Source of the DNA: Escherichia coli
GTDB taxonomy: Bacteria > Pseudomonadota > Gammaproteobacteria > Enterobacterales > Enterobacteriaceae
Length of the DNA: 64,000 bases
Assembly: GCF_050920415.1 (NCBI RefSeq)
Contig: NZ_CP169309.1
Strand: one strand, 5' to 3'
Shown piece by piece: positions 14,992-33,081 of this stretch; the first letter of the stretch is position 1; every line of letters starts with the position of its first letter. The notes beneath the pieces are model-generated. The model searched no databases, was not told the origin of the DNA, and saw nothing but the letters and a program-made list of their open reading frames with translations. A program made the translations under genes and the position numbers.

Positions 14992-16208
14992 AGGTCGGCT
15001 TCTTCTTATTGAAATTTCCGCTGTCGTCGGAAACCTTCGTTCTCAACCAAATCACTGCGTTTATTGATATGGGCTTTGAGGTGGAGATTGTCGCACTGCA
15101 AAAAGGCGATACGCAAAACACCCACGCGGCATGGACGAAATATAACCTTGCCGCCAGAACTAGCTGGTTACAGGACGAACCACAAGGCAAAGTGGCGAAA
15201 CTGCGCCACCGCGCCAGCCAGACCTTACGCGGCATTCATCGTAAAAATACCTGGCAGGCGCTCAACCTCAAACGCTATAGTGCTGAGTCGCGGAACCTGA
15301 TTTTGTCTGCCATTTGTGGTCAGGTCGCAACACCGTTTCATGCTGATGTGTTTATCGCACATTTTGGCCCTGCGGGGGTAACCGCAGCAAAACTACGGGA
15401 ACTGGGTGTCATTCGCGGCAAAATTGCCACTATCTTCCACGGCATTGATATCTCCAGTCGGGAAGTGCTCAACCATTACACTCCCGAATATCAACAACTG
15501 TTTCGCCGTGGCGATTTGATGCTACCGATTAGCGATCTGTGGGCCGCAAGGCTGCAAAAAATGGGCTGCCCGAGGGAAAAAATTGCCGTATCGCGCATGG
15601 GTGTAGACATGACGCGCTTTAGCCCGCGTCCGGTAAAAGCGCCTGCAACGCCGCTGGAAATCATTTCCGTCGCACGCTTAACCGAGAAAAAAGGCCTGCA
15701 TGTGGCGATCGAAGCCTGCCGTCAGTTGAAAGAGCAGGGCGTGGCATTTCGCTATCGCATCCTCGGCATTGGCCCGTGGGAACGACGCCTGCGCACCCTC
15801 ATCGAACAATATCAACTGGAAGATGTGGTAGAGATGCCGGGCTTTAAACCAAGCCACGAAGTGAAGGCGATGCTCGACGACGCGGATGTCTTCCTGTTGC
15901 CTTCGGTAACGGGTGCTGACGGTGATATGGAAGGTATTCCGGTGGCGCTAATGGAAGCGATGGCAGTCGGTATTCCGGTTGTTTCTACTCTGCATAGCGG
16001 AATTCCGGAACTGGTGGAGGCCGATAAATCCGGCTGGCTGGTGCCTGAGAACGATGCTCGTGCACTGGCGCAACGTCTGGCGGCGTTTAGCCAGCTGGAC
16101 ACCGACGAACTTACTACGGTTGTCAAACGTGCGCGCGAAAAAGTCGAACACGATTTTAACCAGCAGGTGATTAACCGAGAACTCGCCAGCTTGTTGCAGG
16201 CTTTATAG
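14988..16208 (+). CDS. wcaL: Colanic acid biosynthesis glycosyltransferase WcaL (GT4 family)
   Basis: 406-aa ORF; start overlaps the wcaK stop; gene order. Confidence 0.88.
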
Positions 16209-16218
16209 AGGAGAACGC

Positions 16219-17613
16219 ATGCCATTTAAAAAACTCTCCCGACGCACCTTCCTGACGGCAAGCTCGGTGCTTGCCTTCCTCCATACCCCTTTCGCTCGCG
16301 CACTTCCTGCCCGACAAAGCGTCAATATCAACGACTACAATCCACACGACTGGATCGCCTCATTTAAACAAGCCTTCAGCGAAGGGCAAACGGTCGTCGT
16401 GCCTGCCGGATTGGTTTGCGACAATATCAACACTGGCATCTTCATCCCCCCTGGCAAAACGTTACACATCCTGGGAAGCCTGCGCGGCAACGGCAGAGGG
16501 CGATTTGTCTTACAGGACGGCAGCCAGGTGACAGGGGAGAAGGGCGGCAGTATGCATAACATCACCCTGGATGTGCGCGGTTCTGACTGCACCATCAAAG
16601 GGCTGGCGATGAGCGGCTTTGGCCCGGTAACGCAGATTTATATCGGTGGCAAAAACAAACGGGTCATGCGCAACCTGACCATCAATAACCTCACCGTTAG
16701 CCACGCTAACTACGCTATCTTACGCCAGGGATTTCATAACCAGATTATCGGTGCCAACATCACCAACTGTAAGTTCAGCGACTTACAGGGCGACGCCATT
16801 GAATGGAACGTGGCAATTAACGACAGTGATATTTTGATCTCCGACCATGTCATCGAGCGCATCAACTGTACTAACGGCAAAATCAACTGGGGCATTGGCA
16901 TAGGCCTTGCGGGAAGCACTTACGATAATAATTACCCGGAAGATCAGGCAGTGAAAAACTTTGTCGTGGCGAATATCACGGGATCGGATTGTCGGCAGTT
17001 GATACATGTTGAAAATGGTAAACATTTTGTTATTCGTAATATCAAAGCCCGCAATATCACGCCGGATTTCAGTAAGAAAGCAGGCATTGATAACGCCACA
17101 GTCGCTATTTACGGTTGTGACAATTTCGTGATTGATAATATTGAAATGATTAATAGCGCCGGGATGTTAATCGGCTATGGGGTAATTAAAGGCAAATATC
17201 TCTCGATACCGCAAAATTTCCGAGTGAATAATATTCAGCTGGATAACACCTACCTTGCTTACAAATTGCGCGGCATCCAAATCTCTGCCGGGAATGCCGT
17301 CTCCTTTGTGGCACTGACTAACATTGAGATGAAGCGTGCGTCGCTTGAGCTACACAATAAACCGCAACACCTTTTTATGCGAAATATCAATGTGATGCAG
17401 GAATCCTCTGTTGGACCTGCATTGAGCATGAACTTCGACATGCGCAAAGACATTCGTGGCGTCTTTATGGCGAAAAAAGAAACACTGCTGTCTCTTGCAA
17501 ATGTTCATGCGGTGAATGAAAGAGGGCAAAGCTCCGTCGATATCGACAGGATAAATCACCATATTGTTAATGTGGAAAAGATTAACTTTAGATTGCCGGA
17601 ACGGAGGGAGTAG
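16219..17613 (+). CDS. wcaM: Colanic acid biosynthesis protein WcaM (predicted Tat-exported, beta-helix-like)
   Basis: 464-aa ORF; N-terminus [21 protein letters not shown] carries a twin-arginine (RR-x-FLT) signal motif; last gene of the wca operon. Confidence 0.88.
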
Positions 17614-17787
17614 ATTTGCGACCATTCCTGGAAAAATGGAGCCATACTTAGGAACAATGCTACTGCAATCCACAACGAAGCGGCGTAACATCACAAGTAA
17701 TTCAGTAATCAATTCAGGGTAATTGATGCTGGCGAAAAAAATCGAACAAGCTATAATTCAGCAACCATTTTACAGGTGGATGAAATA

Positions 17788-18681
17788 ATGACGAATTTAA
17801 AAGCAGTTATTCCTGTAGCGGGTCTTGGGATGCATATGTTGCCTGCCACTAAGGCGATTCCCAAAGAGATGCTACCGATCGTCGACAAGCCAATGATTCA
17901 GTACATTGTTGACGAGATTGTGGCTGCAGGGATCAAAGAAATCCTCCTGGTAACTCACGCGTCCAAGAACGCGGTCGAAAACCACTTCGACACCTCGTAT
18001 GAATTAGAATCTCTCCTTGAGCAGCGCGTGAAGCGTCAACTGCTGGCGGAAGTTCAGTCCATCTGCCCGCCGGGCGTGACCATTATGAACGTGCGTCAGG
18101 GCGAACCTTTAGGTTTAGGCCACTCCATTTTATGTGCACGACCCGCCATTGGTGACAATCCATTTGTCGTGGTACTGCCAGACGTTGTGATCGACGACGC
18201 GAGTGCCGATCCGCTGCGTTACAACCTTGCTGCCATGATTGCGCGCTTCAATGAAACAGGCCGTAGCCAGGTGCTGGCAAAACGTATGCCGGGTGACCTC
18301 TCTGAATACTCGGTCATCCAGACCAAAGAACCGCTGGATCGCGAAGGTAAAGTCAGCCGCATTGTTGAATTCATCGAAAAACCGGATCAGCCGCAAACAC
18401 TGGACTCAGACATCATGGCCGTTGGTCGCTATGTGCTTTCTGCCGATATTTGGCCGGAACTTGAACGCACTCAGCCTGGTGCATGGGGACGTATTCAACT
18501 GACTGATGCCATCGCTGAACTGGCGAAAAAACAGTCCGTTGATGCCATGCTGATGACAGGTGACAGCTACGACTGCGGTAAAAAAATGGGTTATATGCAG
18601 GCATTTGTGAAGTATGGACTACGCAACCTCAAAGAAGGGGCGAAGTTCCGTAAAGGGATTGAGAAGCTGTTAAGCGAATAA
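17788..18681 (+). CDS. galF: UTP-glucose-1-phosphate uridylyltransferase-like regulatory subunit GalF
   Basis: ATG at 17788 ([39 protein letters not shown]...) gives 297 aa; nucleotidyltransferase fold; marks the 5' flank of the O-antigen locus. Confidence 0.93.
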
Positions 18682-21984: not shown

Positions 21985-22398
21985 ATGATGGATATTAAAT
22001 TAATCTCTTTGCAAAAACATGGGGATGAGCGTGGTGCATTAATTGCTCTTGAAGAGCAACGAAATATACCTTTCGAAGTCAAAAGAATATATTACATACT
22101 CGAGACTCTTAAGGGAGTAAGACGCGGATTTCATGCGCACAAGGTTACTCGTCAGTTAGCTATTGTAGTCAAGGGAGCTTGTAAATTTCATCTGGATAAT
22201 GGTAAAGAAACAAAGCAGGTGGAACTTAATGATCCAACAATTGCGTTGCTGATAGAACCCTATATATGGCATGAAATGTATGATTTTAGTGATGATTGTG
22301 TGCTGCTTGTAATTGCGGATGATTTCTATAAAGAGTCTGATTATATACGCAATTATGATGATTTTATTAGAAGAGTAAATTCAATTGAGAATTCATAA
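21985..22398 (+). CDS. fdtA: dTDP-4-keto-6-deoxyglucose 3,4-ketoisomerase (FdtA/QdtA-type cupin)
   Basis: 137-aa ORF; small cupin of the WxcM C-terminal/FdtA type (...RGFHAHK...WHEMYDFS...); sits between rmlA and an acetyltransferase/aminotransferase pair. Galacto- versus gluco-configured product cannot be told by eye. Confidence 0.7.
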
Positions 22399-22852
22399 GC
22401 TAAGTGACGTCCAGACAACATCAATTGGTGATGGAACAACTATCTGGCAGTTTGTTGTAATACTAAAAGGTGCTGTAATTGGTAATAATTGCAACATCTG
22501 TGCAAATACCTTGATTGAAAATAACGTTGTAATTGGTAACAATGTCACAGTCAAAAGCGGTGTGTATATTTGGGATGGCGTTAAAATAGAGGATAATGTT
22601 TTTATTGGTCCTTGTGTAGCATTTACAAATGATAAGTATCCTCGCTCTAAAGTCTATCCTGATGAATTTTTGCACACAATAATACGCAAAGGAGCATCAA
22701 TAGGTGCTAATGCAACCATCCTGCCAGGAATTGAAATTGGTGAAAAAGCAATCGTTGGTGCGGGGAGTGTCGTAACCAAAAATGTACCGCCATGCGCAAT
22801 AGTAGTAGGTAATCCAGCTCGATTTATTAAATGGGTAGAGGATAATGAATAA
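22385..22852 (+). CDS. fdtC: dTDP-3-amino-3,6-dideoxyhexose N-acetyltransferase (hexapeptide-repeat, FdtC-type)
   Basis: 155-aa ORF with left-handed beta-helix repeats ([23 protein letters not shown]...); probable TTG start at 22385 overlapping the fdtA 3' end, start uncertain. Confidence 0.7.
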
Positions 22853-30244: not shown

Positions 30245-31381
30245 ATGGAACTTAAAAAATTGATGGAACATATTTCTATTATCCCCGATTACAGACAAGC
30301 CTGGAAAGTGGAACATAAATTATCGGATATTCTACTGTTGACTATTTGTGCCGTCATTTCTGGTGCAGAAGGCTGGGAAGATATAGAGGATTTTGGAGAA
30401 ACACATCTCGATTTTTTGAAGCAATATGGTGATTTTGAAAATGGTATTCCTGTTCACGATACCATTGCCAGAGTTGTATCCTGTATCAGTCCTGCAAAAT
30501 TTCACGAGTGCTTTATTAACTGGATGCGAGATTGCCATACTTCAGATGATAAAGACGTCATCGCAATTGATGGAAAAACACTCCGGCATTCTTATGACAA
30601 GAGTCGCCGTAAGGGAGCGATTCATGTCATTAGTGCGTTCTCAACAATGCACAGTCTGGTCATCGGACAGATCAAGACGGATGAGAAATCCAATGAGATT
30701 ACAGCCATCCCTGAACTTCTTAACATGTTGGATATTAAAGGGAAAATTATCACAACTGATGCGATGGGTTGCCAGAAAGATATTGCAGAGAAGATACAAA
30801 AACAGGGAGGTGATTATTTATTCGCTGTAAAAGGAAATCAGCGTCGGCTTAATAAAGCCTTTGAAGAAAAATTCCCACTGAAAGAATTAAATAATCCAGA
30901 GCATGACAGTTATGCAATTAGTGAAAAGAGTCACGGCAGAGAAGATATCCGTCTTCATATTGTTTGCGATGACCCTGATGAACTTATTGATTTCACGTTT
31001 GAATGGAAAGGACTGAAAAAATTATGCGTGGCAGTCTCCTTTCGCTCAATAATAGCAGAGCAAAAGAAAGAGCCCGAAATGATGGTCAGATATTATATCA
31101 GTTCTGCTGATTTAACCGCTGAGAAGTTTGCGACAGCGATTTGAAATCACTGGCACGTGGAGAATAAGCTGCACTGGCGTCTGGACGTGGTAATGAATGA
31201 AGACGATTGTAAAATAAGAAGAGGAAATGCAGCAGAATTATTTTCTGGGATACGGCACATTGCTATTAATATTTTGACGAATGATAAGGTATTCAAGACA
31301 GGATTAAGACGTAAGATGCGAAAAGCAGCCATGGACAGAAACTATCTCGCGTCAGTCCTTGCGGGGAGCGGGCTTTACTAG
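30245..31381 (+). mobile_element. ISAs1-family (H-repeat-associated) transposase gene interrupted by a single in-frame TGA (pseudogene)
   Basis: 299-aa ORF (30245-31144) and 74-aa ORF (31157-31381) are in the same frame, separated only by TGA at 31142-31144; the combined about 378-aa product has the ISAs1 motif ...[21 protein letters not shown]... with the stop at a conserved Arg position. Confidence 0.8.
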
Positions 31382-31453
31382 TCCTTCCTCGCTCAGTGAC
31401 AGAATATTGAATGAATAGCATTAAAATTATTAAATAATATGGTTTAATTCGAC

Positions 31454-33081
31454 ATGAACTTTAAGAATATAATTAGAATAATACTACCTTTTTTTATTTT
31501 CTTGAGTATTTTACTTTACTCAGGAAGGGCGGATAGTGTTTTGTTATTTACTATCGAATACACACTTGCAAGTATGGCAATCTTTCTGATAAAAAGAAAG
31601 TTTATAAGCAATATCTTGTGGGGGATTTATCTCTCAATTTTAGGTGTACAGGCAGCATCGCTATTTAGTTCAGGACAATATTTGATGCCTCTTGCCTTGT
31701 CGAATGCTGCAGAAGTTGAATCGCTAGGCATTGGCGAGGTAATCAAGGTTTTTTCTATTTTTATTTTATTTGTTATAGTTTCATTCGTTACGATGCCTTC
31801 TGGTGCTCTAGTCGGCCGTATTAAATATTATAAATTTAATTTTTTCTGTATAGTATTATTGCTTGTGTGTTCTTTCATAAGCACGGGACCGGTATATGCT
31901 TTTTATGAAACAGCAAAATTGTACTATTTACAGCAAACCTTTAAGCCTAGTGAGAAGATCGGTGATGCCGGGAAATCTTTTTTAAAAACAAGTGTTTTTA
32001 TTAACCCTCTACAGAATAACAACAACTTCAAAGGGCGTAATGTTATTGTAATCTTTGCTGAGGGATTTTCATCGGAGATTATTGGTAATTCAAAAATGGC
32101 GCATTTTCCAATTACGCCTAATTTAGATAAGTTATCTACTGAAGCACTAAGTTTTAAAAATTATTATAACCATACAGCAGTAACCTTTCGAGGTTTAAGA
32201 GGCCAGTTAACTTCTGGCTATCAATTTCGTGATGGGTTAACTGATGCTGGTACTGGTATTGCACAATTATCTAACGTAGAAATTAATAATATTTATCTTC
32301 ATCGTCAAACATCTTTGCCGAATATATTGAAAGAGTATGGCTATAAAAGTTATTTTATAGCGTCTACAGAAAAAATAGCCCACTCAACACTATGTTGAAA
32401 ACGCTTAATTTTGATAAAGTTCTTGGTATGGGAGATTTTATTGGTTATCAACGCGACAGAATGACTGATAAGCAAACATTTAATGCACTGCAATATTTTT
32501 TACGTTCTCAAGAAAATAAAAACGAACGCTTTTTTATTGGTGTGTACCCATCTGGTACTCATCATGGTCAAGATAGTCCAAATGAAAAATATTTTGATGG
32601 TAGCAATCCTCTCTACAATAAATTCTATAACTATGATTTTCAGTTGGGGAAGTTTGTTGATTTTTTTCGGCGCAGTTCATTTTATGGCAATACGTTGTTG
32701 ATAATTACATCGGATCATTCTACATTTCCTTCGACAGAATATAAGAAATCATTTAACAGCGATTCTCGTTATTTTGTGGACAAAATACCATTTCTGATCA
32801 TTGGGAAAAATATTACGCCTGAAGTTTTAGATGCAGGAGGTGAAAATTCTTTAAGTTTCGCGCCAACAATATTGCACATGTTAGGGATTCAGTATTCAAT
32901 GAATTATTTTTTGGGGTGTTCTCTTTTTGATAAGACGTGCACATCACCATTCTCACATCTTTCTGCTATTGGTAGTGATTATTTCAATACAGGCAAAGAA
33001 AATCATGTTGAACTAATTCAAAATAATAGTGGTAATGAATTAATAAAATTAGCCGAACGTTTTTATAACATTAGTGGCTAA
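31454..33081 (+). pseudogene. Sulfatase/alkaline-phosphatase-superfamily membrane enzyme (LtaS/phosphoglycerol- or phosphoethanolamine-transferase-like), frameshifted
   Basis: 314-aa ORF (31454-32398) has N-terminal TM helices then a sulfatase-like domain (NVIVIFAEGFSSE...); the domain continues in another frame as a 229-aa ORF (32392-33081; ...LLIITSDHSTFPS...); frame change lies near an A6 run at 32370-32375. Confidence 0.6.

What the first reader, a model, noticed from the sequence alone, without database searches (positions are those of the whole stretch)
16219..16320. WcaM N-terminus carries a twin-arginine (Tat) export motif
The first about 30 residues ([31 protein letters not shown]) contain an RR-x-FLT motif, a hydrophobic core and an AxA-like cleavage site, suggesting WcaM is exported folded to the periplasm. 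The mature protein is rich in N/I/T repeats consistent with a beta-helix polysaccharide-binding or processing fold; its precise role in colanic acid synthesis is still poorly defined.
Basis: partly seen in the sequence, partly recalled or inferred. Interest (0 to 1): 0.25.

Follow-up and report, generated by a model that had tools for sequence, protein, structure and literature searches.

The report
WcaM's known Tat export signal
The last gene of the E. coli colanic-acid operon (wcaM) does start with a textbook twin-arginine export signal and encodes a beta-helix protein related to phage enzymes that cut colanic acid, but the signal is already on published lists of Tat substrates, so the finding is correct and ordinary.

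Summary
The ORF at 16219-17613 (+) is WcaM (NCBIfam equivalog, 1020 bits) and is 100% identical to an E. coli chromosomal wcaM. It is the last gene of the wca operon, just before galF.

Residues 1-28 ([28 protein letters not shown]) form a canonical Tat signal:
- a +4 n-region;
- S7-R8-R9-T-F-L-T at the n/h boundary;
- a 16-residue, moderately hydrophobic h-region;
- an A26-R27-A28 cleavage site.

The strict motif occurs once in the window's six-frame translation. RR is invariant in 116 of 116 orthologues. Most short, cell-encoded relatives at 25-40% identity also have RR N-termini.

One detail is off: N and I are enriched, but T is not, and there is no significant sequence periodicity.

Published E. 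coli and Salmonella tables already list WcaM as a Tat substrate, so this is not new. The most likely function is a periplasmic colanic-acid glycanase. That function is inferred, not demonstrated.

The parts
16208..16213 (+). Shine-Dalgarno sequence GAGGAG, 5 nt upstream of the wcaM ATG; it overlaps the wcaL stop codon (16206-16208)
   Evidence: Read directly from the sequence; wcaL ORF end at 16208.
16219..17613 (+). wcaM coding sequence (464 codons plus stop), the last gene of the colanic acid (wca/cps) operon
   Evidence: ORF list. NCBIfam NF007517 at 1020 bits and TIGR04004 at 970 bits, both above their cut-offs. 100% identical to the annotated wcaM of E. coli MFDS1022581.
16219..16302 (+). 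Tat signal peptide, residues 1-28 ([28 protein letters not shown]); predicted signal peptidase I cleavage after A28 (between 16302 and 16303)
   Evidence: Anatomy. Residues 1-28 are the only segment of the AF2 model with pLDDT below 50. PMC7549933 prints the same peptide, apart from A17V, as the WcaM Tat signal.
16237..16257 (+). Twin-arginine motif S7-R8-R9-T10-F11-L12-T13
   Evidence: The only match to [ST]RR.F[LIVM] in the six-frame translation. RR is invariant in 116 of 116 orthologues. This stretch is 85% identical across orthologues, against 55-59% for its flanks.
16246..16293 (+). h-region, residues 10-25 ([16 protein letters not shown]), moderately hydrophobic
   Evidence: Mean Kyte-Doolittle value 1.19, within the range of nine accepted Tat signal peptides.
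16294..16302 (+). c-region cleavage motif A26-R27-A28, with a basic residue (Sec-avoidance type)
   Evidence: A-x-A is found in 93 of 116 orthologues, with ARA the commonest form (45). 76 of those 93 also have K or R in the first six mature residues.
16303..17610 (+). Mature WcaM, residues 29-464: a single right-handed parallel beta-helix domain
16705..17262 (+). Residues 163-348: the core that aligns by sequence alone with the phage Phi92 colanidase tailspike gp150
   Evidence: phmmer against the PDB: 6e0v_A, E 1.2e-24.
16792..17013 (+). Residues 192-265: three consecutive stretches holding the family-wide conserved polar residues (D192, E195, N197; W224, G225; Q260, H263, E265). This is the candidate active site.
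   Evidence: Alignment of 95 sequences including phage relatives: G225, H263 and E265 are invariant; D192, E195, N197, W224 and Q260 are conserved in at least 90%. Sequence contexts. The catalytic role is inferred, not tested.

Best explanation
wcaM encodes a precursor whose first 28 residues are a twin-arginine (Tat) signal peptide.

Proposed mechanism:
1. The S-R-R-T-F-L-T motif at the n/h boundary is recognised by TatBC.
2. The beta-helix domain, already folded in the cytoplasm, crosses the inner membrane through the Tat translocase.
3. Signal peptidase I cleaves after A26-R27-A28.
4. This releases a 436-residue soluble periplasmic right-handed beta-helix protein.

The mature protein is the cell's own homologue of phage colanidase tailspikes. 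It lacks their N-terminal virion-attachment domain. It most likely binds colanic acid along the beta-helix groove and cleaves it. It would then act as a chain-length or quality-control glycanase of the Wzx/Wzy-dependent colanic acid pathway. Known analogues are WceF (stewartan) and, from my own knowledge, PslG, BcsZ and AlgL.

Shown here: the gene identity, the signal anatomy and its selective conservation, the fold, and the homology to phage colanidases.
Taken from the literature: WcaM's status as a Tat substrate.
Inferred: folding before export, the exact cleavage site, and catalytic activity on colanic acid with D192, E195, H263 and E265 as candidate active-site residues.

My confidence is about 0.9 for 'Tat-exported periplasmic beta-helix protein' and about 0.55 for 'active colanic-acid glycanase'. 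The confidence value given for this explanation refers to the export and fold claim.
For: Identity and context:
- WcaM equivalog HMMs.
- Annotated wcaM at the end of wza...wcaL-wcaM, followed by galF.

Signal:
- Motif, charge, h-region and AxA site.
- Single occurrence in the window, with about 0.005 expected by chance at an N-terminus.
- RR invariant in 116 of 116 orthologues.
- The motif is more conserved than the rest of the signal peptide.
- Of 20 full-length cell-sized relatives (about 400-500 aa, 25-70% identity) among the 50%-identity representatives, 11 have an RR N-terminus on reading and about 4 a Sec- or lipoprotein-type one. The 580-1016 aa phage-type relatives, with one exception (P0183, 605 aa, SRRKFIT), have no signal peptide.
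- Published tables list WcaM as a Tat substrate: PMC7549933 (signal peptide printed), PMC3027627, PMC8262268.

Fold and function:
- AF2 pLDDT 92.9, with only residues 1-28 disordered.
- phmmer E 1.2e-24 to the same chain.
- PHROG 'colanic acid degradation', E 3.8e-52.
- 245 phage genomes carry relatives. Most infect hosts from genera known to make colanic acid (my own knowledge). Their annotations include colanic acid-degrading protein and tailspike colanidase.
- Conserved D, E and H residues lie in the segment shared with gp150.
- Three distant Tat-bearing relatives lie next to glycosyltransferase, WcaJ-type, WcaD-type or pyruvyltransferase genes.

Analogy: WceF of Pantoea stewartii has a Tat signal and a beta-helix, is encoded in an EPS cluster and cleaves stewartan, and its knockouts make longer chains (PMC7949094).
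Against: - No dedicated Tat predictor could be run.
- The Pfam TAT_signal score is below its gathering cut-off. Most accepted Tat signals also fall below it.
- The primary experimental paper on E. coli Tat signal peptides could not be read, so experimental Tat dependence rests on secondary tables.
- Nothing here shows why Tat would be needed. No cofactor-binding motif was found, and oligomerisation was not tested.
- No enzymatic data exist for WcaM in the searched literature.
- Salmonella delta-wcaM strains are used as 'colanic acid-deficient' mutants (PMC8171120). That suggests a role needed for production rather than only trimming.
- The next-best structural neighbours are epimerases and lyases, so the chemistry is not fixed by the fold.
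Confidence: 0.85

Rival explanations
1. The N-terminus is an ordinary Sec signal peptide, or one that uses both Tat and Sec, and the RR pair is incidental or only partly used. WcaM would then cross the membrane unfolded and fold in the periplasm.
For: The peptide also has every feature of a Sec signal: a positive n-region, a hydrophobic core and an AxA site. Its h-region (maximum 10-residue hydrophobicity 1.97) is at the upper end of the Tat set. The window's allele carries A17V relative to the published peptide, which makes it slightly more hydrophobic. A few distant relatives have clear Sec or lipoprotein-type N-termini, for example P0187, P0207 and P0231, so the fold can evidently be exported without Tat. 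PMC8262268 notes that some native Tat signals can route through Sec.
Against: RR is invariant in 116 of 116 orthologues. The full S/T-R-R-x-F-L/I/V motif is kept in 113 while the flanking residues drift. A basic residue in the c-region (R27) and another in the early mature region (R32) are the features described as Sec-avoidance signals (my own knowledge). RR N-termini recur in relatives at 25-40% identity. Published lists classify WcaM as a Tat substrate.
Confidence: 0.1
2. The signal peptide is not cleaved. It acts as an N-terminal membrane anchor that tethers the beta-helix to the periplasmic face of the inner membrane, next to the Wzy (WcaD)/Wzc machinery.
For: Some Tat substrates keep their signal as an anchor (my own knowledge). 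Tethering would place the enzyme close to und-PP-linked polymer. The AF2 model leaves residues 1-28 unstructured and detached from the domain.
Against: The h-region is only about 11-16 residues long and contains S, T, H and P, which is short for a stable transmembrane helix. A small-x-small cleavage motif is conserved at the same place in most orthologues. PMC7549933 prints the peptide as a cleavable signal ending at ARA.
Confidence: 0.05
3. The export part is right, but mature WcaM is not a hydrolase. It could be a lyase acting at the glucuronic acid residue, an epimerase or modifying enzyme, or a non-catalytic polysaccharide-binding or scaffold protein required for polymerisation or export.
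Against: The closest relatives by a wide margin are phage proteins annotated as colanic-acid-degrading or colanidase. Acidic and histidine residues are invariant between the cell and phage branches, which argues for retained catalysis rather than binding alone. The analogue WceF is a demonstrated glycosidase.
Confidence: 0.25

Closest known systems
E. coli / Salmonella WcaM as listed among Tat substrates (b2043 / STM2099)
   Same: This is the same protein. It matches NCBIfam equivalogs NF007517 and TIGR04004. The signal peptide is identical to the published [28 protein letters not shown] apart from A17V. The operon position is the same.
   Different: It is only an allelic variant. The window's allele is 98% identical or less to all but one of 4,639 E. 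coli genomes that carry the gene.
Phage Phi92 gp150 colanidase tailspike (PDB 6E0V/6E0W) and PHROG 6117 'colanic acid degradation'
   Different: gp150 is a 626-residue virion protein with an N-terminal attachment domain and no signal peptide. WcaM replaces that domain with a Tat signal and is chromosomal and operon-encoded. Overall identity is only about 21-22%. WcaM's activity and oligomeric state are untested.
Pantoea stewartii WceF (PDB structure described in PMC7949094)
   Same: It has a Tat signal peptide of 28 residues and a right-handed beta-helix with a tailspike-like fold. It is encoded inside a Wzx/Wzy-type exopolysaccharide cluster. It cleaves its own EPS, and its knockouts give longer chains. 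It is the best functional model for WcaM.
   Different: No sequence similarity to WcaM was detectable (phmmer at E <= 10 and profile at E <= 1 against the PDB). WceF is not among the top 50-60 structural hits. It is 736 residues long, trimeric and three-domain. It is an analogue, not a family member.
Periplasmic glycanases and lyases encoded in other exopolysaccharide operons (AlgL, PslG, BcsZ; RbmB of Vibrio cholerae)
   Different: These enzymes have different folds (AlgL, PslG, BcsZ) or different families, generally use Sec rather than Tat export, and act on different polymers.

Membership tests
Tat (twin-arginine) signal peptides | Consensus (S/T)-R-R-x-F-L-K at the boundary of the n- and h-regions, near the N-terminus | tested here: met
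   S7-R8-R9-T10-F11-L12-T13 matches 6 of 7 consensus positions (K replaced by T). It is the only occurrence in the window's six-frame translation.
Tat (twin-arginine) signal peptides | Positively charged n-region; h-region of about 12-20 residues, less hydrophobic than typical Sec signals | tested here: met
   Net charge +4 in residues 1-9. The h-region is 16 residues with a mean Kyte-Doolittle value of 1.19, within the 0.60-1.44 range of nine accepted E. coli Tat signals. No Sec comparison set was run.
Tat (twin-arginine) signal peptides | c-region with an A-x-A signal peptidase I site, often with a basic 'Sec-avoidance' residue | tested here: met
   A26-R27-A28. A-x-A is found in 93 of 116 orthologues, and 49 of those have a basic residue in the c-region.
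Tat (twin-arginine) signal peptides | The RR pair is conserved among orthologues | tested here: met
   116 of 116 full-length orthologues keep RR. The motif is 85% identical against 55-59% for the flanking signal residues. Distant cell-encoded relatives also carry RR.
Tat (twin-arginine) signal peptides | Score above threshold with a curated Tat-signal model (Pfam PF10518; TIGR01409) | tested here: inconclusive
   PF10518 gives 11.9 bits on the whole protein and 16.5 bits on the peptide, against a cut-off of 22.7. There was no TIGR01409 hit at E <= 1. SufI, AmiA, AmiC, FdnG, MdoD, FhuD, YcbK and YahJ also fall below the cut-off, and only CueO passes.
Tat (twin-arginine) signal peptides | Export depends on TatABC and on the RR pair (experiment); TatP or SignalP call | not testable with these tools
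   The only support is secondary: published Tat substrate tables. The primary reporter-fusion study was not retrievable.
WcaM family (NCBIfam NF007517 / TIGR04004; Pfam PF27800) | Full-length match above the curated cut-off | tested here: met
   1020 bits against a cut-off of 808, and 969.7 bits against 794.6, covering residues 1-464. Homologues carry the precomputed PF27800 label, named WcaM.
WcaM family (NCBIfam NF007517 / TIGR04004; Pfam PF27800) | Position as the last gene of the colanic acid wca operon, upstream of galF | tested here: met
   The annotated context is wzb-wzc-wcaA...wcaK-wcaL-wcaM-galF. The window differs from that record at 7 of 37,613 bases.
Right-handed parallel beta-helix (pectin-lyase-like) superfamily | Three-dimensional fold superposable on known right-handed beta-helices | tested here: met
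Phage colanidase tailspikes (Phi92 gp150 type; PHROG 6117) | Homologous catalytic beta-helix | tested here: met
Phage colanidase tailspikes (Phi92 gp150 type; PHROG 6117) | N-terminal virion-attachment domain and residence in a phage genome | tested here: not met
   The WcaM homology starts right after the signal peptide, whereas in the long relatives it starts at about residues 100-470. The gene is chromosomal and lies in the wca operon. WcaM is therefore a cellular homologue, not a tailspike.
Phage colanidase tailspikes (Phi92 gp150 type; PHROG 6117) | Depolymerises colanic acid; trimeric assembly | not testable with these tools
Only a monomer was modelled.
WceF-type EPS-cluster beta-helix glycosidases | Sequence homology to WceF | tested here: not met
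   WceF chains do not appear in the phmmer (E <= 10) or profile (E <= 1) searches of the PDB, nor in the top structural hits.
WceF-type EPS-cluster beta-helix glycosidases | Tat signal plus beta-helix, encoded within the EPS biosynthesis cluster | tested here: met
   The WceF features come from PMC7949094. WcaM resembles WceF in design without belonging to its family.

The most novel reading that the evidence does not exclude
WcaM is an active, Tat-exported periplasmic endo-colanidase, the host's own copy of the enzyme that phages use to drill through colanic acid. It would trim or release nascent polymer and so set chain length or prevent periplasmic jamming. The cell-encoded Tat-bearing branch and the phage tailspike branch would share a recent common origin by gene capture. 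No paper in the searched library states or tests this.
Probability: 0.5. Interest if true: 0.4.

Novelty: already known. Interest (0 to 1): 0.15.

Why it matters
The Tat signal itself changes nothing. WcaM has appeared in published E. coli and Salmonella Tat substrate tables since at least 2011 (PMC3027627). It is routinely deleted in Tat-substrate screens, with no virulence phenotype on its own (competitive index 0.89, not significant; PMC7549933).

The useful by-product is a concrete, testable function for the one wca gene product that no paper in the searched library assigns an activity. WcaM would be a periplasmic beta-helix glycanase homologous to phage colanidases, with D192, E195, H263 and E265 as candidate catalytic residues. 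If confirmed, colanic acid synthesis would join the exopolysaccharide systems that carry a built-in depolymerase. It would also give a simple recombinant colanidase for biofilm work. This is a modest gain, not a surprise to specialists.

Tried and rejected
- Primary literature. I could not retrieve the E. coli Tat signal-peptide reporter study, the Phi92 tail paper, the 1996 wca cluster paper or the 2015 phage colanic-acid-degrading-enzyme paper. Experimental Tat dependence and colanidase activity therefore rest on secondary citations and on my own knowledge.
- Local Pfam copy. It gave no beta-helix domain for WcaM, only a sub-threshold TAT_signal hit. I considered this as evidence against a Tat signal and rejected it after calibration.
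- Sequence repeats. Autocorrelation of hydrophobic and Asn positions showed no significant period (maximum z 2.4). The 'repeat' description is structural, not sequence-based.
- Promoter and terminator scan of 16000-17900. It gave nothing above the shuffle expectation, so there is no evidence for a separate wcaM promoter or an operon-end terminator.
- WceF as a homologue. Rejected, because no sequence hit was found. I kept it as a functional analogue.
- Lipoprotein signal. Rejected, because there is no cysteine in residues 1-66.
- Catalytic residues of gp150.

Full report
**Observation.** The window has an ORF at 16219..17613 on the + strand, 464 codons long. The ATG at 16219 is the first start codon after an in-frame stop. 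A GAGGAG Shine-Dalgarno sequence at 16208-16213 lies 5 nt upstream and overlaps the stop codon of the preceding gene, so the N-terminus is not in doubt.

**Gene identity.** The protein matches both NCBIfam equivalog models for WcaM over its full length (1020 and 970 bits, both above their cut-offs). The DNA is 100% identical to the annotated wcaM of E. coli strain MFDS1022581. There it is the last gene of wzb-wzc-wcaA...wcaL-wcaM, followed by galF and an O2/O50-type O-antigen cluster. The window differs from that record at 7 of 37,613 compared bases.

**Is the Tat motif more than chance?** The anatomy is as follows:
- n-region: residues 1-9, net charge +4.
- Motif: S7-R8-R9-T10-F11-L12-T13, which matches 6 of the 7 positions of (S/T)-R-R-x-F-L-K.
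- h-region: residues 10-25, with a mean Kyte-Doolittle value of 1.19. This lies inside the range (0.60-1.44) that I computed for nine accepted E. coli Tat signal peptides taken from PMC7549933.
- c-region: ends in A26-R27-A28, with a basic residue.

The pattern [ST]RR.F[LIVM] occurs once in the 127,996 positions of the six-frame translation. From the amino-acid composition, about 0.005 occurrences are expected within the first 30 residues of the window's 45 long ORFs.

Conservation is the stronger argument. Among 116 full-length orthologues from Escherichia, Citrobacter, Salmonella, Enterobacter, Kosakonia and Leclercia, all keep RR and 113 keep the strict motif. Across 26 diverse orthologues, residues 7-12 are 85% identical, against 59% for residues 1-6, 55% for residues 13-28 and 79% for the mature protein. 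An A-x-A site is present in 93 of 116 orthologues.

The family reaches further out. A scan of 1.84 billion representatives found only 186 relatives. Of 20 full-length relatives of about 400-500 residues, at 25-70% identity, 11 have an RR N-terminus on reading and about 4 a Sec- or lipoprotein-type one. The 580-1016-residue relatives have the WcaM-like region internally. With one exception (P0183, 605 aa, SRRKFIT) they have phage-tail-like N-termini without any signal.

**One negative result, and why it does not count.** The Pfam TAT_signal model scores WcaM below its cut-off of 22.7 bits (11.9 bits in the whole protein, 16.5 bits on the isolated peptide). I calibrated the model on nine accepted signal peptides:

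| Signal peptide | Score (bits) |
|---|---|
| CueO | 27.0 (passes) |
| MdoD | 22.1 |
| AmiA | 18.9 |
| SufI | 17.7 |
| AmiC | 14.4 |
| FdnG | 13.3 |
| FhuD, YcbK, YahJ | no hit |

The model is too strict to be informative, and WcaM sits in the middle of the accepted set. TatP and SignalP were not available.

**What is already known.** WcaM is listed as a Tat substrate of E. coli and Salmonella in several papers:
- PMC7549933 prints its signal peptide as [28 protein letters not shown], which differs from the window's only by A17V and ends at the same ARA. It also reports a delta-wcaM mutant with no significant virulence defect (competitive index 0.89).
- PMC3027627 lists wcaM as predicted Tat-dependent in both species.
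- PMC8262268 lists it among molybdopterin-independent substrates.

From memory, a 2007 reporter-fusion survey of 29 E. coli Tat signal peptides included WcaM. I could not retrieve it and do not rely on it.

**The mature protein.** I predicted the structure with AlphaFold2 from a 95-sequence alignment that included the distant relatives. The model is confident (mean pLDDT 92.9, pTM 0.90) and all-beta. The only segment with pLDDT below 50 is residues 1-28, which is exactly the proposed signal peptide.

The fold comparisons agree with each other:
- Foldseek against the PDB ranks the 'colanidase tailspike protein gp150 of phage Phi92' (6E0V) first (E 1.5e-16, TM 0.66). After it come AlgE4, RbmB, GH28 and GH87 enzymes and the Sf6 and HK620 tailspikes.

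The relation to gp150 is visible by sequence alone (E 1.2e-24 over residues 163-348). PHROG 6117, 'colanic acid degradation', matches residues 86-460 at E 3.8e-52. In all, 245 phage genomes carry a relative. Their hosts are mostly Escherichia, Salmonella, Cronobacter, Klebsiella, Enterobacter and Kosakonia. The annotations include colanic acid-degrading protein and tailspike colanidase.

The beta-helix prediction is therefore confirmed. The detail 'N/I/T repeats' is only partly right. Asn (10.6% against 4.2% background) and Ile (10.8% against 7.2%) are enriched, but Thr is not (4.1% against 5.0%). No sequence periodicity is significant.

**Mechanism.** Across cellular and phage members, G225, H263 and E265 are invariant. 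D192, E195, N197, W224 and Q260 are at least 90% conserved. These residues fall in three stretches about 32-36 residues apart (192-197, 224-232, 260-265). That spacing is about one helical turn, so they probably stack on consecutive rungs along one face, as active sites do in beta-helix glycanases. This is an inference, because I could not inspect the coordinates.

The most likely sequence of events is this:
1. The precursor folds in the cytoplasm.
2. TatBC recognises the SRRTFLT motif.
3. The folded beta-helix is translocated.
4. Signal peptidase I cuts after ARA.
5. The 436-residue periplasmic enzyme binds and cleaves colanic acid.

The best-studied analogue is WceF of Pantoea stewartii. It has a 28-residue Tat signal and a tailspike-like beta-helix, and it is encoded in the stewartan cluster. 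It cleaves stewartan, and its knockouts make longer chains (PMC7949094). WceF is not detectably homologous to WcaM, so it is a design analogue rather than a family member.

Three distant Tat-bearing WcaM relatives also lie next to polysaccharide-synthesis genes. P0123 (41% identity) is in a colanic-acid-like cluster with WcaD-type polymerase, WcaJ-type transferase, GDP-fucose genes and a pyruvyltransferase. P0184 and P0176 are beside glycosyltransferases. This supports a general link between this protein family and exopolysaccharide gene clusters.

**Uncertainties.**
- Export by Tat rests on sequence features plus secondary literature.
- Nothing here explains why Tat is needed. No cofactor motif was found, and oligomerisation was not tested.
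- A few distant relatives use Sec-type signals.
- No paper in the searched library reports an activity for WcaM.
- Salmonella delta-wcaM is used as a 'colanic acid-deficient' strain (PMC8171120). That could mean WcaM is needed for production, as some operon-encoded depolymerases are, rather than only for trimming.
- The second-tier structural neighbours include epimerases and lyases, so hydrolysis is not guaranteed.

I put about 0.9 on 'Tat-exported periplasmic beta-helix protein' and about 0.55 on 'active colanic-acid glycanase'.

**Verdict.** Interest is low. The only forward-looking element is the untested but now well-motivated hypothesis that WcaM is the host's own colanidase.

Noticed in passing
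window 16219-17613: The window's wcaM allele is rare. Only 1 of 4,639 E. coli genomes carrying the gene is at least 99% identical, 2,170 are 95-99% identical and 2,378 are 90-95%. This diversity is unusually high for a core-like gene. It probably reflects recombination hitch-hiking with the adjacent O-antigen locus. 787 of 5,426 complete genomes have no wcaM match at all.
   Followed up: no
window 16267-16269 (codon 17): The signal peptide carries Val17, where the published E. coli peptide (PMC7549933) and the common clusters have Ala (SSVLAF against SSALAF). The change is conservative and slightly raises h-region hydrophobicity.
   Followed up: partly
window about 22385-22576 and 22700-22831 (from L001 26167-26358 and 26482-26613): In the near-identical record, the O2/O50-type O-antigen cluster downstream contains two fragments of an acyltransferase / DapH-like gene annotated as pseudogenes. 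This suggests a disrupted O-antigen acetyl- or acyl-transferase.
   Followed up: no
window about 30245-33081 (from L001 34027-36863): An ISAs1-family transposase pseudogene with an internal stop lies between the O-antigen cluster and gnd. It is followed by two adjacent 'sulfatase-like hydrolase/transferase' ORFs that look like one split gene.
   Followed up: no
protein P0081: A 761-residue metagenomic protein combines a 95%-identical WcaM region with WcaJ-type domains (PF13727, PF02397). It is probably an assembly or gene-calling chimera rather than a real fusion.
   Followed up: no
protein P0071; phage hits H24 and others: There are some odd taxonomic labels. A 75%-identical WcaM is attributed to 'Vagococcus sp. 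WN89Y', a Firmicute. Five phages of about 146 kb labelled as Campylobacter jejuni phages carry the colanidase-like gene. These are likely contamination or host mis-assignment, as PMC11126041 discusses for an 'Acinetobacter' phage with the same gene.
   Followed up: no
L002 10001-11344 (GCA_000737915.1): A 41%-identical WcaM relative with an SRRNFF N-terminus lies in a colanic-acid-like cluster but on the opposite strand. It sits between a gnd-like gene and a WcaJ-type gene rather than at the operon end.
   Followed up: partly
window 17776-17790: The mechanical ORF for galF starts at a GTG at 17776. The RefSeq annotation starts 12 nt downstream, at about window 17788. This is a trivial start-site ambiguity.
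   Followed up: no
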